This document shows, piece after piece, positions 15,086 through 19,859 of a DNA stretch of 19,859 nt (position 1 is the stretch's first letter; every line of letters begins with the position of its first letter). The notes under the pieces were generated by a model. The model did not search any database, was not told the DNA's origin, and was given only the letters and a program-made list of their open reading frames with translations. A program made the position numbers and the translations under genes. Location of the stretch: positions 1-19,859 of the IMG/VR virus record IMGVR_UViG_3300045988_109904. The stretch is one strand, 5' to 3'. Origin of the DNA: a virus. Its lineage: Duplodnaviria; Heunggongvirae; Uroviricota; Caudoviricetes.

Positions 15086-16119
15086 TGAGCAAGAAAAAAG
15101 GGAAAACACCGCAACCTGCGGCAAAAAAAATGACCGCCAGCGCCCCGAAAATGGAGGCATTCACCTTTGGTGAGCCGGTGCCGGTGCTCGACCGCCGTGA
15201 CATTCTGGATTACGTCGAATGTATCAGTAACGGCAGATGGTATGAGCCGCCGGTCAGCTTTACCGGTCTGGCAAAAAGCCTGCGTGCTGCCGTGCATCAC
15301 AGCTCACCGATTTACGTCAAACGTAATATTCTGGCTTCAACGTTTATCCCGCACCCGTGGCTTTCCCAGCAGGATTTCAGCCGCTTTGTGCTGGATTTTC
15401 TGGTGTTCGGTAATGCGTTTCTGGAAAAGCGTTACAGCACCACCGGTAAGGTCATCAGACTGGAAACCTCACCGGCAAAATATACCCGCCGTGGCGTGGA
15501 GGAGGATGTTTACTGGTGGGTGCCGTCCTTCAACGAGCCGACAGCCTTCGCGCCCGGCTCCGTGTTTCACCTGCTGGAGCCGGATATTAATCAGGAGCTG
15601 TACGGCCTGCCGGAATATCTCAGCGCCCTTAACTCTGCCTGGCTGAATGAGTCGGCCACGCTGTTCCGCCGCAAGTATTACGAAAATGGCGCACATGCCG
15701 GATACATCATGTACGTCACCGATGCCGTGCAGGATCGCAACGATATCGAAATGCTTCGCGAAAACATGGTGAAGTCGAAAGGCCGCAACAACTTTAAAAA
15801 CCTGTTTCTCTATGCCCCGCAGGGGAAAGCCGACGGCATTAAAATTATCCCGCTCAGTGAAGTGGCGACGAAGGACGATTTTTTTAATATCAAAAAAGCC
15901 AGCGCCGCTGACCTGCTGGACGCACACCGCATCCCCTTTCAGTTGATGGGTGGCAAGCCGGAGAACGTCGGGTCACTGGGTGATATTGAGAAAGTGGCAA
16001 AGGTCTTTGTCCGCAATGAGCTAATCCCGTTACAGGACAGGATTCGGGAAATAAACGGCTGGCTCGGCCAGGAGGTCATCCGCTTTAAAAACTACTCACT
16101 GGACACTGACAACGGCTGA
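15085..16119 (+). CDS. Q: Portal protein Q (P2 gpQ-like)
   Basis: 344-aa ORF with ATG at 15085 overlapping the P stop (ATGA). It is followed by a strong terminator and the cos match, as in P2. Confidence 0.93.
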   Translation: MSKKKGKTPQPAAKKMTASAPKMEAFTFGEPVPVLDRRDILDYVECISNGRWYEPPVSFTGLAKSLRAAVHHSSPIYVKRNILASTFIPHPWLSQQDFSRFVLDFLVFGNAFLEKRYSTTGKVIRLETSPAKYTRRGVEEDVYWWVPSFNEPTAFAPGSVFHLLEPDINQELYGLPEYLSALNSAWLNESATLFRRKYYENGAHAGYIMYVTDAVQDRNDIEMLRENMVKSKGRNNFKNLFLYAPQGKADGIKIIPLSEVATKDDFFNIKKASAADLLDAHRIPFQLMGGKPENVGSLGDIEKVAKVFVRNELIPLQDRIREINGWLGQEVIRFKNYSLDTDNG

Positions 16120-16124
16120 ACATC

Positions 16125-16146
16125 GCCGCCTGCGGGCGGCTTTTTT
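16125..16146 (+). terminator. Rho-independent terminator after Q
   Basis: Stem gccgcc (16125-16130) / ggcggc (16135-16140) with loop tgcg, followed by TTTTTT (16141-16146), 5 nt after the Q stop codon. Confidence 0.75.
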
Positions 16147-16288
16147 ACACCCCGTCATCACGCCCTCACACGCTCACCACCGCACAAAACACCCCGCAGA
16201 CACACCAACGCCCTAGCAGGCCAAGTAAACGCCTTCACGACGCGCTCAGACGCTGAAAAAATAAAATCCGCACCACCGCCAGCGCGCA

Positions 16289-16307
16289 GTGCTTTCCCCG
16301 CCTCGCC
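16289..16307. other. cos site (19-nt cohesive-end sequence of P2/P4 type)
   Basis: The minus strand of 16289..16307 reads GGCGAGGCGGGGAAAGCAC, which matches the P2 cohesive-end sequence as I recall it. It lies in a C-rich region about 170 bp past Q, where cos sits in P2. Confidence 0.65.
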
Positions 16308-16325
16308 CGCCCGCTTCATAGGGCG

Positions 16326-16347
16326 CTTTTAATGCAATTGCATTAAA
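16326..16347. repeat. Perfect 22-bp palindrome ttttaatgcaa|ttgcattaaaa
   Basis: The two halves are exact reverse complements with no spacer. It lies 19 bp from the cos match, at the GC-rich to AT-rich transition. Function is unknown (candidate protein-binding site). Confidence 0.85.
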
Positions 16348-16631
16348 ACACAGTAACCGCATCAACACTGGTAACAAACATGGAAAAGCATGGCAACTAA
16401 CACACGCAAAAAAATGCACTTAATGAATGCAGTAATAAAAATCTCAGGAAATTGACAATTCATTTATTTTTTCAAAATCCCAGTTAGTTAAAGGCTCGCT
16501 ATCATTACAAGCAATCAAAAAATGTCTTAGCTCTAACAGCAAGTAGTAATAGTAGTTGCCACCAACAAGCGTTAACATTACCATAACAAACAACAAGCAT
16601 TCCTACACCTACATCAGATGAACAGGTAATT

Positions 16632-17996
16632 ATGATTAATTTAATTATGGGTGGTTTTCCCGACCACTACGACCACTGGAAACCATTCAGCCAAAATAAT
16701 GGAGAATTCTCATTTCTTTTATCACGAATGTTTGAAAACACCTCCGATGGTATTCGCAAAAAACTATCCCCATTAAGCAGCAATGTACTATCTTATCTTG
16801 AAAAACTCCCAACAATATTCATGAGTGAAGCTTATCAAATAGAGGGAGCAAAACCTTATTATGTCGACATACGAATTGGAAGAATTTCAAATATTCACAT
16901 TAAGGGAAAAGAAATCAACTTCCAATTTGCAATCACCCATACACACAATGAAATCAAAATATCAGACGCCAAAAGTGTTGAAAGCAGTTTAGAACTCGGA
17001 ACTTATGGCCTTAAAAGAACACACTGGGCCATAAAAGACAAAAATATAGATGATATCCTTAAGACATTTGGTATTAACCAAAATGCACAAGTGGATAGCA
17101 GTCCAGCGCCTCTCCCAGACGAAGATAGCACATTATTAACCGTAAATAGTTTACAAGAATTTATTGAAAAAGTTCTCCATATAACAGCAGATATGGATGA
17201 GGAGATTTTTTACAGGGGTCATTCAGATTCATCTTATGAACTTGCACCATCTCTTTTCAGAAAATATGAAAATGGGAACTATAAATTTCTACATAATGAA
17301 ATCAACCTTGTTAAAGAAGCATTGAGCGCAAGACCCTCAGAATTCATTGATGATACATCAATGCTTGATAAACTTGTAAGAATGCAACATTATGGCATAC
17401 CTACTCGCTTACTTGACATCACATCAAATCCATTAATTGCACTTTATTTTGCATGCAGTAGTATAAATTCCGACAAAAACGATATCGATGGTCAAGTAAT
17501 AATATTTAAAACACACAGAGAGAACATTAAATTTTTCGATTCCGACACTGTCAGTTGCATATCTAATTTATGCATGCTATCAAAAGACATGAAAGACAAG
17601 CTTTCTTTCGAAGAAAGAAATAATGATTTTAACAACTCTCATGCTTGCCTTAAACTCTTAGAATCCATAAAGCATGAAAAACCATATTTTCAAAGCATAA
17701 TAAATCCAGATGATTTGGAAAAGATAATTTTTGTAAAAAGCAGGATAAATAATGAAAGAATATCATCTCAATCCGGTGCCTTTTTATTATTCGGTAATAA
17801 CGCCGTTTTTCCTGAGATATCCAACGATCAGGCAGATAATTCACCATACAACTTTAAGACAGAAAAAATAAACATCAGAGACAAAAAGAAAATTTTAAAA
17901 GAACTTGCCGTGCTCAATATTACTGATGCCACTGTATATTTAGGATTGGAAAGAACAATGAAACTAATCACAGAAAAATACACATTAAAAAATTAG
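16632..17996 (+). CDS. FRG-domain protein (454 aa) with an unassigned ~190-aa N-terminal domain; candidate anti-phage cargo
   Basis: ATG at 16632 (AGGT 4 nt upstream), TAG at 17994-17996. The central region carries FRG-family signature strings: FYRGHSDSSYELAPSLFRK (from aa 193) and QHYGIPTRLLDITSNPLIALYFAC (from aa 252). The gene is AT-rich, unlike the phage core. Confidence 0.85.
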   Translation: MINLIMGGFPDHYDHWKPFSQNNGEFSFLLSRMFENTSDGIRKKLSPLSSNVLSYLEKLPTIFMSEAYQIEGAKPYYVDIRIGRISNIHIKGKEINFQFAITHTHNEIKISDAKSVESSLELGTYGLKRTHWAIKDKNIDDILKTFGINQNAQVDSSPAPLPDEDSTLLTVNSLQEFIEKVLHITADMDEEIFYRGHSDSSYELAPSLFRKYENGNYKFLHNEINLVKEALSARPSEFIDDTSMLDKLVRMQHYGIPTRLLDITSNPLIALYFACSSINSDKNDIDGQVIIFKTHRENIKFFDSDTVSCISNLCMLSKDMKDKLSFEERNNDFNNSHACLKLLESIKHEKPYFQSIINPDDLEKIIFVKSRINNERISSQSGAFLLFGNNAVFPEISNDQADNSPYNFKTEKINIRDKKKILKELAVLNITDATVYLGLERTMKLITEKYTLKN

Positions 17997-18023
17997 CATT
18001 CCATAACCAAAATATCTCCATAC

Positions 18024-18052
18024 TTCCCCGCAGAAATTAAGGCTACGGGGAA
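18024..18052. terminator. Hairpin between the convergent FRG and RT genes (possible bidirectional terminator)
   Basis: 7-bp stem ttccccg (18024-18030) / cggggaa (18046-18052) with a 15-nt loop, in the 108-bp gap between the two stop codons. The long loop and absence of a clean U-tract make this a weak call. Confidence 0.3.
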
Positions 18053-18104
18053 ATAACATCAGTAAGTATCTTAAGAACAATATAATCACTTACAGGAACC
18101 TGTA

Positions 18105-19082
18105 TTAAAGTGCAGTACTTGCTTTTAATGTAAGCACCTTTGATCTATAACGTTGTTCAATTACCCCCATAGAATGCAATCGTCCAAATAACTTTTTGGC
18201 AGTATGAGTTTCTCTTGCACACGCTGCATCCTTTATCATTTTCCAATATTCAATTTCTTGAGACATTAAAAGATGCTGCTTATTCCTGACTTTTAAAGAA
18301 CCGCCCAAAACAATAACACCTGTTACCAACTTAGGCTTTTCTCTACTATAAATTTTTGTTTTATCCGCATGCATCACATGACCATGCTTATTTATTATTT
18401 TGCGAATCACTGAACAAAATAGTCTATTAACGTTTTGTCCTGAAAAAGTTAGATCATCAACATAAACAGACATATTTACGTGTAGTTTATTACAAAGTTG
18501 GTGTATTTCTCCGAACATTCTTGAATTTGCAAAATATGCAAGAGGCATACTAATCCTGCTACCTGTAGGCAAACGCCCATAGCAAGTACATATATACGAT
18601 AATACATCCGCAACATCAGATGACATCTTCATAACAGAAAAAAAGAATGAAAATATCATTTCTCTAGTAGTTGATGGAAAAAAAGCCCTGATGTCGGTTG
18701 TCATCAACCTTTCATTATTAAGGTGGATTTTAGCATTAGTAACATTAGAACATCCCTTCTTTCCAGAATGTAGATAATCTGGCAAGGTAATTCGCGATAG
18801 CAGACTTGCAATACGAGTATGCACCACATCTAATTTTTCTAATGGTTTTTGTATCTTACGTGGCTTTCCGTTTTTAGATAACTGTTCAAAAATAGAATAA
18901 TTGCCTTCATCTTTTTTTAAGGTTGATAAATCCCCTACATCAACCCCCAATAAAGAAGCCAATTTCCTTTTACTTCTCATTTTATAAAACGGCGAATCAA
19001 TTATATCGTAAGATTTATTTTTAGTGGAAATTTTGAGTTTTATTCGTCTTTTCATTTTTCTTATTCGCCCACTCAATAACAT
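18105..19082 (-). CDS. Reverse transcriptase, retron-type (about 316-325 aa)
   Basis: ATG at 19082 (alternative ATG at 19055), TAA at 18105-18107. It has RT catalytic YVDD (aa 207-210, nt 18464-18453), LPTGSRISMPLA (the QGxxxSP-like motif), and two retron-RT hallmarks: NAxxH (NAKIH, aa 116-120) and VTG (KLVTGVIV, aa 252-259). Size matches retron RTs (Ec86 RT is about 320 aa). Confidence 0.88.
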   Translation of the reverse strand: MLLSGRIRKMKRRIKLKISTKNKSYDIIDSPFYKMRSKRKLASLLGVDVGDLSTLKKDEGNYSIFEQLSKNGKPRKIQKPLEKLDVVHTRIASLLSRITLPDYLHSGKKGCSNVTNAKIHLNNERLMTTDIRAFFPSTTREMIFSFFFSVMKMSSDVADVLSYICTCYGRLPTGSRISMPLAYFANSRMFGEIHQLCNKLHVNMSVYVDDLTFSGQNVNRLFCSVIRKIINKHGHVMHADKTKIYSREKPKLVTGVIVLGGSLKVRNKQHLLMSQEIEYWKMIKDAACARETHTAKKLFGRLHSMGVIEQRYRSKVLTLKASTAL

Positions 19083-19353
19083 CTAATACTTTACCAGCTA
19101 AATTTAAACGGAAACGCTTAGATAAACGCCCCTGCGTACCTAACGATTCTGAAAAAAATACTAAAGAAGATACCGGCATATCGAAATGGGAGGCGTAACG
19201 CTGTAAAACATCAATTGTAGGCGACCAAACCCCACTTTCGAGTTCTACTATTTTTTCTTTTGGAATACCTAAAGATGTTGATAAATCAACCAATGACTCT
19301 TTATGGTATTGCCTTATTAAACGAAGGGCTCTGTGTAACATAGGCAACTCCAT
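19021..19353 (-). CDS. XRE-family helix-turn-helix protein (110 aa) immediately upstream of, and overlapping, the RT gene
   Basis: ATG at 19353 (alternative ATG at 19341 with GGAG 6 nt upstream). HTH_XRE-like segment LRLIRQYHKESLVDLSTSLGIPKEKIVELESGVWSPTIDVLQRYASHF. Its 3' end overlaps the RT 5' end by about 35-60 nt, suggesting co-translation. Confidence 0.75.
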   Translation of the reverse strand: MELPMLHRALRLIRQYHKESLVDLSTSLGIPKEKIVELESGVWSPTIDVLQRYASHFDMPVSSLVFFSESLGTQGRLSKRFRLNLAGKVLDVIEWANKKNEKTNKTQNFH

Positions 19354-19377
19354 GCTATTGAAACTAGGGAGGACGCA

Positions 19378-19533
19378 TTACTCATCACCCCCTTCAAAGT
19401 AGTCCAGTGCTCGAGTGGCTAAATCAAACAGTCTAATACCCCATTTGATTAATTTCCAAACATAACCAGCCCACTTTTTCAGGTTTGACTTGTTCTGCGC
19501 CTGCTGTTCGTTGGTTAATTTATCATTCTTCAT
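19378..19533 (-). CDS. Small ORF (51 aa) with a strong RBS, between the structured RNA region and the HTH gene
   Basis: ATG at 19533-19531 preceded by AAGGAG 7 nt upstream; stop at 19378-19380. Product MKNDKLTNEQQAQNKSNLKKWAGYVWKLIKWGIRLFDLATRALDYFEGGDE has a Trp-rich amphipathic stretch. The track's 130-aa version starts at TTG and reads through the structured region; I prefer the short form. Confidence 0.45.
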   Translation of the reverse strand: MKNDKLTNEQQAQNKSNLKKWAGYVWKLIKWGIRLFDLATRALDYFEGGDE

Positions 19534-19547
19534 GATTTGCTCCTTAT

Positions 19548-19802
19548 GCCCATAGTGTGCAAACGATATGTCTGCTCCAACACTATGGTTCGCCCTCATA
19601 AGGATGAGATTGAACAGCACTAGCCCCCTGCTCCACGAACCCTTGGTCGCCCAAAGGGTTCGAATACCCATACGCCATACCGCCTGATCCTGTGACTCTT
19701 GTCGCTGGCAGGGGCGTTGCGCGGGGTAAATGTTAGAAAGCGTTAACTTTCCACGGGTAAAGTTACCCAATTGATGGCGATGTATCTCACTAACTAACCA
19801 AT
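19548..19802 (-). ncRNA. Candidate structured non-coding RNA (possible retron msr-msd, or a structured operon leader)
   Basis: Dense inverted repeats on a GC-richer patch: an 11-bp stem with one bulge, cgaacccttgg (19636-19646) / ccaaagggttcg (19651-19662); a perfect 9-bp stem ccatagtgt (19550-19558) / acactatgg (19580-19588); and small hairpins around 19596-19612 and 19749-19770. Direct repeats tggagcag and gggcga(a)cca are also present. It lies downstream of an extended -10 promoter. Boundaries are approximate and a1/a2 repeats were not resolved. Confidence 0.35.
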
Positions 19803-19808
19803 GTTTGC

Positions 19809-19837
19809 ATCATAACAAGTAAACCGTTGTATTTGAT
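19809..19837 (-). promoter_or_regulatory. Candidate sigma70 promoter with extended -10 driving the RT-module transcript
   Basis: Minus strand reads TGtTATGAT (TG at 19817-19816, -10 hexamer 19814..19809). The -35 (atcaaa, 17-bp spacer) is weak. The predicted start near 19802 coincides with the beginning of the structured region. Confidence 0.35.
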
Positions 19838-19859
19838 CTCCCTATATATAATATTTTTT

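What the first reader, a model, noticed from the sequence alone, without database searches (positions are those of the whole stretch)
18105..19837. Retron-type RT module with non-canonical layout: structured RNA, small ORF, HTH gene, then RT
The RT shows the catalytic YVDD box together with the NAxxH and VTG motifs that distinguish retron RTs, and has retron-like size. In classical retrons the msr-msd RNA is immediately upstream of the RT. Here the RT start is overlapped by an XRE-type HTH gene, preceded by a 51-aa ORF, and the only strongly structured region lies about 500 nt upstream of the RT behind its own promoter. As far as I recall, a retron subtype with an HTH accessory protein has been described, but I cannot assign this locus to it from sequence alone. 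The identity of the effector and the true position of the msr-msd are open.
Basis: partly seen in the sequence, partly recalled or inferred. Interest (0 to 1): 0.7.

Follow-up and report, generated by a model that had tools for sequence, protein, structure and literature searches.

The report
Type VI retron on P2-like phage
This is a complete, ordinary member of the already described Type VI retron family (structured RNA, small toxin gene, HTH gene, reverse transcriptase) carried as anti-phage cargo by a P2-like E. coli phage, so the "odd" layout is the normal one for this family.

Summary
On the minus strand of 18105-19817 lie a retron RT, an overlapping HTH gene, a 51-aa ORF and a strongly structured RNA. 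PADLOC profiles give RT_VI (E 1e-105) and HTH_VI (E 7e-30). The order ncRNA, small protein (SP), HTH, RT is the published canonical Type VI operon (Mestre 2020; Zhang/Shipman 2025; Garcia-Rodriguez/Toro 2026).

I recovered the Retron-Vpa2 locus itself. Its RT is 54.5% and its HTH about 50% identical to this one, its SP belongs to the same family, and its hybrid RNA aligns with the window RNA block for block. Three close E. coli alleles are labelled "Large" Type VI in the Toro 2026 tree.

Comparison of 14-18 homologues maps these parts:
- msr-like hairpins
- a variable-length msd hairpin
- the conserved repeat pair
- a helix that buries the SP ribosome-binding site
- several covarying long-range helices

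The effector is most likely the SP toxin. Its translation is probably released by msDNA after phage attack, as shown for Vpa2. The segment is 100% identical to Peduovirus P22H1 and occurs in 100 of 5426 complete E. coli genomes. Already known; low interest.

The parts
19809..19817 (-). Likely promoter: extended -10 TGtTATGAT (hexamer 19814-19809). Predicted transcription start near 19802.
   Evidence: Read from the sequence. A -10-like hexamer sits at the same relative position in most of the aligned homologues I inspected, by eye. The 5' leader just downstream must be transcribed, because it forms a covarying helix. The start site is inferred, not measured.
19345..19802 (-). Hybrid RNA (hyRNA): non-coding msr-msd part, riboregulator, SP coding sequence and 3' inverted repeat, about 460 nt.
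   Evidence: Folding z = -6.0. It aligns block for block with the Retron-Vpa2 hyRNA locus L086. The consensus structure has 95.7% paired cells and 23 of 64 pairs with compensatory changes, and 0 of 500 shuffles reach this. The Vpa2 hyRNA is about 470 nt by RNA-seq. The ends in the window are inferred.
19792..19801 (-). 5' leader arm UUGGUUAGUU, which pairs with SP codons 5-8 (19520-19511).
   Evidence: (I4). All 14 homologues keep an 8-11 bp duplex at the same relative positions with different sequences.
19784..19788 (-). a1-like element GAGAU. Its Watson-Crick partner is AUCUC at 19610-19606. An alternative wobble partner is GUUUC at 19364-19360.
   Evidence: 100% paired, with A-U in 8 and G-C in 6 sequences. 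Distant lineages have GAGAG:CUCUC and GGGAG:CUCCC. The GUUUC partner comes from RNAalifold and varies on one side only.
19735..19769 (-). Two msr-like hairpins: hp1 19769-19754 and hp2 19752-19735. An invariant CGCCA precedes them at 19779-19775.
   Evidence: Covariance model R1 hits the window once, at 19719-19794 (-), with 84.9 bits. It also finds six loci that were not used to build it. With the correct register, 98.9% of cells pair, 7 of 11 pairs are compensatory, and 0 of 500 shuffles reach this.
19665..19728 (-). msd stem-loop: a long imperfect hairpin closed by a conserved ACCC/GGGU base.
   Evidence: Every homologue folds this segment into a single hairpin of different sequence and length, 57-115 nt. 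[quoted passage not shown] I equate that stem-loop with this hairpin through the alignment.
19636..19662 (-). Conserved hairpin CGAACCC-UUUGGGCGACCAA-GGGUUCG, the probable 3' part of the msd. Its loop carries repeat DR1, GGGCGAC, at 19652-19646.
   Evidence: Helix 5 has 3 compensatory pairs. [quoted passage not shown] Coordinates are.
19624..19628 (-). GGGGG, which pairs with CUCCC (19371-19367) just after the SP stop codon. This is the 'wrap-around' inverted repeat.
   Evidence: Helix 6: 100% paired, with A-U 6, G-C 5 and G-U 3 at one position. In distant lineages the pair changes to CAGGGA:UCCCUG, GGGAC:GUCCC and AGGGU:GCCCU. It matches the a1/a2-like repeat described for Vpa2.
19612..19619 (-). 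UGCUGUUC, which pairs with GAACAGCA (19509-19502) inside the SP coding sequence (codons E9 Q10 Q11).
   Evidence: Helix 7: 100% paired, with U-A 8, A-U 4 and G-C 2 at one position. Q10 and Q11 are invariant in the SP alignment.
19606..19610 (-). a2-like element AUCUC, the partner of GAGAU.
19541..19604 (-). Riboregulator. The anti-SD UCCUUAUG (19604-19597) pairs with CAUAAGGA (19548-19541), which overlaps the Shine-Dalgarno AAGGAG. Repeat DR2, GGGCGAA (19595-19589), lies in the internal loop. The inner hairpin is 19588-19550.
   Evidence: All 14 homologues form the anti-SD:SD duplex with compensatory flanking changes. The inner hairpin is I5. The DR1/DR2 pair matches the published msDNA-hybridisation model.
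19378..19533 (-). SP gene: a 51-aa small protein and the predicted toxic effector, MKNDKLTNEQQAQNKSNLKKWAGYVWKLIKWGIRLFDLATRALDYFEGGDE.
   Evidence: An ORF of about 45-65 aa with an SD sits in the same position in nearly all of about 50 loci. The family alignment grades continuously into the Vpa2 SP and shares the ...GGD[ET] end. The Vpa2 SP is toxic on its own. No profile library recognises it.
19360..19371 (-). 3' inverted-repeat block CUCCC-UA-GUUUC, immediately after the SP stop codon.
   Evidence: Nearly invariant in the alignment. Pairings are shown.
19021..19341 (-). HTH gene: 106 aa, Cro/C1-type. Predicted repressor of reverse transcription and antitoxin-like partner.
   Evidence: PADLOC HTH_VI E 7e-30. 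It is 50% identical over 98 aligned residues to the Vpa2 HTH, E 9e-37, including the MxHRALRLIRQYH N-terminus with R7. The role is taken from the Vpa2 and Sen3 experiments.
18105..19055 (-). Retron reverse transcriptase, 316 aa (the ORF extends to 19082). Motifs: NAKIH 18737-18723, YVDD 18464-18453, VTG 18326-18318.
   Evidence: PADLOC RT_VI E 1e-105 over the full profile. Pfam RVT_1. PDB hits are retron RTs only. It is 54.5% identical to the Vpa2 RT.

Best explanation
The minus strand of about 18105-19817 is a complete Type VI retron of the Vpa2/Eco12 ('Large') lineage. It sits in the variable cargo slot of a P2-like phage, between replication gene A and cos/portal.

One promoter makes a hybrid RNA of about 460 nt. 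In 5' to 3' order it holds:
- a 5' leader
- two msr-like hairpins
- the msd, made of a variable long hairpin plus a conserved hairpin that carries repeat DR1
- a riboregulator whose stem buries the Shine-Dalgarno of the small protein and whose loop carries repeat DR2
- the 51-aa SP coding sequence
- a 3' inverted repeat that folds back onto the msd end

The HTH and RT genes follow and overlap each other.

The mechanism below is inferred from Retron-Vpa2 and was not tested here. RT and HTH bind the hybrid RNA. HTH keeps reverse transcription low, and SP is not translated. Phage recombination proteins and RecBCD inhibition let msDNA accumulate. The 5' part of the msDNA is complementary to DR2, so it opens the riboregulator. 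SP is then made and arrests the infected cell (abortive infection).

Shown here: family membership, gene order, homology of all four parts to Vpa2, and the covariation-supported RNA helices. Inferred: transcript ends, priming site, trigger, toxicity.
For: **Family profiles.** RT_VI E 1e-105 and HTH_VI E 7e-30. PDB matches are retron RTs only. RTs of E. coli alleles 62-81% identical to this one are labelled 'Large' Type VI in the published tree.

**Operon layout.** The published canonical Type VI operon is ncRNA-SP-HTH-RT. The same order occurs in about 50 genome loci.

**Link to Vpa2.** L086 encodes the exact Vpa2 SP, including K15, I39, F43 and F45. Its RT is 54.5% identical and its HTH about 50% identical. 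Its SP joins the same family alignment, and its RNA aligns block for block.

**RNA structure.**
- The fold has z = -6.
- The consensus structure has 23 compensatory pairs, and 0 of 500 shuffles reach this.
- The msr hairpins are confirmed by a covariance model in loci not used to build it.
- The msd hairpin varies in length.
- The anti-SD:SD duplex is present in all homologues.
- The leader:CDS helix and the a1:a2 helix both covary.
- The DR1/DR2 repeats lie where the published model needs them.

**Context and precedent.** The segment lies in the P2 defence hotspot. Eco12, an E. coli Type VI retron, defends against lambda-vir.
Against: - There are no experimental data for this allele. I could not obtain the Retron-Eco12 sequence, so identity with Eco12 is unproven.
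- Type VI retrons differ in mechanism. Retron-Sen3 makes ssDNA and SP constitutively and is controlled post-translationally.
- SP identity to the Vpa2 SP is only 22% globally, with a weak pairwise BLAST (E 0.012). The link rests on intermediates and on context.
- The covarying long-range helices cannot all be nested in one fold, so the real fold, or a switch between folds, is unresolved.
- The priming G and the transcription start are not determined.
- Rfam has no model that matches.
Confidence: 0.85

Rival explanations
1. It is a Type VI retron, but it works like Retron-Sen3. SP and ssDNA are made constitutively, HTH neutralises SP as a protein antitoxin, and loss of RecBCD activity releases the toxin. 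msDNA would not control translation.
For: This mechanism was shown in another Type VI retron from an enterobacterium. HTH is required for viability in both systems. In Vpa2, Gam and RecBCD also affect the msDNA.
Against: Sen3 belongs to the cl2075 lineage with a 79-aa SP unrelated in sequence. The window SP is 51 aa and belongs to the Vpa2 family. The anti-SD:SD helix and the DR1/DR2 pair needed for translational control are conserved here. The closest E. coli RT alleles are in the 'Large' clade with Vpa2. Eco12 gave no detectable msDNA at rest.
Confidence: 0.12
2. The structured region is only an mRNA leader or attenuator for the SP-HTH-RT operon, and the real msr-msd lies elsewhere or does not exist.
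For: Rfam finds no msr family. No msDNA was seen for most Type VI retrons in standard assays.
Against: By alignment, the homologous Vpa2 region is the one where reverse transcription was mapped by spacer-seq and msDNA sequencing. The hairpin varies in length between conserved flanks, as an msd does. The msr-like hairpins covary. The conserved blocks and the covariance model match the window once only, here.
Confidence: 0.02
3. The neighbouring FRG-domain gene (16632-17996) is the effector or a required part of the system.
For: It lies 108 nt from the RT stop, is equally AT-rich (33% GC) and matches the PADLOC defence candidate PDC-S15 (E 7e-98).
Against: It is convergent, not co-oriented. Other E. 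coli alleles and other genera carry the SP-HTH-RT module next to unrelated genes. The Vpa2 operon alone, expressed from a plasmid, was sufficient for defence.
Confidence: 0.01

Closest known systems
Retron-Vpa2 (Vibrio parahaemolyticus, Type VI 'Large' lineage; Zhang et al. 2025, bioRxiv 10.1101/2025.10.22.683967)
   Same: The operon order is the same. RT is 54.5% identical, HTH about 50% identical with the same N-terminal MxHRALRLIRQYH, and SP is in the same family with the ...GGD[ET] end. The hybrid RNA shares the conserved blocks, the msd hairpin position, the direct-repeat pair and the SD sequestration.
   Different: The host and carrier differ: here a P2-like coliphage. The msd hairpin sequence and length differ (65 vs 57 nt), and SP sequence identity is only about 22%. 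The a1:a2 pair is GAGAU:AUCUC rather than GGGAU:AUCCU. Nothing has been tested experimentally for this allele.
Retron-Eco12 (E. coli Type VI retron tested in Zhang et al. 2025)
   Same: It is an E. coli Type VI retron described as phylogenetically related to Vpa2. As a full operon under its native promoter it defends against lambda-vir and gives no detectable msDNA at rest.
   Different: Its sequence is not in the text or supplements I could read. I therefore cannot say whether the window is Eco12, an allele of it, or a different E. coli Type VI retron. E. coli carries at least four allele groups.
Retron-Sen3 (Salmonella, Type VI cl2075 lineage; Garcia-Rodriguez et al. 2026, bioRxiv 10.64898/2026.04.27.721009)
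   Same: It has the SP-HTH-RT architecture and an ncRNA that extends through the SP gene with long-range inverted repeats. HTH associates with RT, and SP is the toxin.
   Different: Its SP is 79 aa and belongs to another cluster. It sits in a different RT subclade. ssDNA and SP are made constitutively and control is post-translational.
Classical retrons (e.g. Ec86/Eco1, Types I-III)
   Same: The RT clade and signature motifs (NAxxH, YxDD, VTG) are shared. So is the msr-then-msd order, with short inverted repeats closing the domain.
   Different: In classical retrons the ncRNA abuts the RT or effector genes, and abundant msDNA acts as the antitoxin. Here about 550 nt (SP and HTH) separate the msd from the RT, the RNA also encodes the toxin, and in the characterised relative msDNA activates rather than restrains the toxin.

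Membership tests
Type VI retron (Mestre et al. 2020) | RT belongs to retron clade 3, Type VI group | tested here: met
   PADLOC RT_VI E 1.1e-105, 350.9 bits, profile positions 1-278 of 279; the next best is RT_III-A at 151.8 bits. RTs of three E. coli alleles (62-81% identical to this RT) are labelled 'Large' Type VI in the Toro 2026 tree.
Type VI retron (Mestre et al. 2020) | Small Cro/C1-type HTH protein (91-110 aa) upstream of, or overlapping, the RT gene | tested here: met
   106 aa (110 from the first ATG). PADLOC HTH_VI E 7.2e-30, weak Pfam HTH_3. It overlaps the RT start by 35 nt. The definition is quoted.
Type VI retron (Mestre et al. 2020) | Small accessory protein (SP) gene upstream of the HTH gene | tested here: met
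   The 51-aa ORF at 19378-19533 has an SD. Its position is conserved in about 50 loci, and the family alignment includes the Vpa2 SP.
Type VI retron (Mestre et al. 2020) | Structured ncRNA/hybrid RNA with msr-msd upstream of and running through SP | tested here: met
   It aligns with the Vpa2 hyRNA. Covariation is shown. The msd hairpin varies in length. The direct repeats are present.
Type VI retron (Mestre et al. 2020) | RT-dependent msDNA/ssDNA production | not testable with these tools
   This needs msDNA extraction or spacer-seq. In relatives it is detectable only after triggering (Vpa2) or constitutively (Sen3).
Type VI retron (Mestre et al. 2020) | Anti-phage defence through the SP toxin | not testable with these tools
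   Shown for Vpa2, Eco12 and Sen3, not for this allele.
Retron RTs in general | NAxxH, YxDD and VTG motifs in an RT of about 300-350 aa | tested here: met
   NAKIH at 116-120, YVDD at 207-210 and VTG at 253-255 of the 325-aa ORF. These residues are invariant in 23 homologues. All 11 PDB sequence hits are retron RTs.
Classical retron layout (msr-msd directly next to the RT/effector genes; msDNA as antitoxin) | ncRNA immediately upstream of the RT | tested here: not met
   The a2-like end of the msr-msd is at 19606 and the RT starts at 19055. SP and HTH lie between them.
Type VI cl2075 sublineage (Retron-Sen3) | SP of 75-79 aa from cluster cl2075, with an N-terminal extension and an amphipathic C-terminal helix | tested here: not met
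   The window SP is 51 aa and, by eye, shows no resemblance to the Sen3, Yersinia or Xenorhabdus SP sequences in Table S3. It aligns with the Vpa2-type SPs instead.
Abi / DRT (UG) defence RTs and group II intron RTs | Best match to Abi/DRT or intron RT profiles; extra domains | tested here: not met
   The 25 listed of 38 PADLOC matches are all retron RT profiles. NCBIfam Drt3a gives only 17 bits against a cutoff of 200. There are no intron or Abi hits in the PDB. The 316-aa protein has only the RVT_1 domain.

The most novel reading that the evidence does not exclude
The hybrid RNA of this lineage may not be a simple three-arm fold. It may be a two-state or pseudoknotted switch.

Four long-range helices covary:
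- leader 19801-19792 with SP codons 5-8
- GAGAU with AUCUC
- GGGGG with the post-stop CUCCC
- UGCUGUUC with the E-Q-Q codons

They fall into two sets that cross each other. This could be the physical link between reverse transcription and release of SP translation.

In addition, the hyRNA-SP module and the HTH-RT module appear to be exchanged independently among P2 prophage alleles. Between the window and the O157 allele, identity is 95-99% for the RNA part against 71-87% for HTH-RT, with a sharp break near 19300. I could not see the published structure figures, so some or all of this may already be described.
Probability: 0.25. Interest if true: 0.4.

Novelty: already known. Interest (0 to 1): 0.15.

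Why it matters
The result mainly helps annotation. RefSeq calls these genes 'reverse transcriptase family protein', 'helix-turn-helix domain-containing protein' and 'hypothetical protein'. The reference phage record even annotates a spurious 130-aa ORF across the ncRNA. The locus should instead be labelled a Type VI retron with a hybrid RNA and a 51-aa toxin gene.

It also supplies a natural E. coli / P2-phage representative of the Vpa2-type mechanism. Every RNA element is mapped to coordinates, which is convenient for experiments in the native host. It does not open a new question.

Tried and rejected
- **Rfam scan.** At E <= 1 over 16000-19859 it found nothing. Rfam has no matching Type VI hyRNA model, so this is not evidence against an RNA.
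- **Promoter scan.** The consensus scan found no promoter upstream of the RNA. I read the extended -10 from the sequence and from its conserved position.
- **Outer inverted repeat.** The 16-nt repeat 19838-19853 / 19356-19371 (I1) looked like an outer a1/a2. It is broken in close alleles and lies upstream of the likely start. I rejected it as chance.
- **RNAalifold partner for GAGAU.** RNAalifold paired GAGAU with GUUUC. That pairing varies on one side only, whereas AUCUC shows true compensatory change. I kept GUUUC only as a possible alternative partner.
- **Covariance model register.** My first structure string for model R1 was one column out of register. The count showed 56.9% paired against 93.4% at slide +1. 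I recounted with the right register. The model's hits rest mostly on sequence.
- **Duplex-energy scan.** A z-score scan with 50-60-nt segments across all loci was uninformative and timed out. I replaced it with short-segment tests.
- **Priming G.** Both candidates, G19778 in CGCCA and G19364 in CUAG, are absent in some distant lineages. No assignment was made.
- **Retron-Eco12 sequence.** Searching the paper and its supplements for it found nothing.
- **NCBIfam.** All retron models score below their cutoffs.
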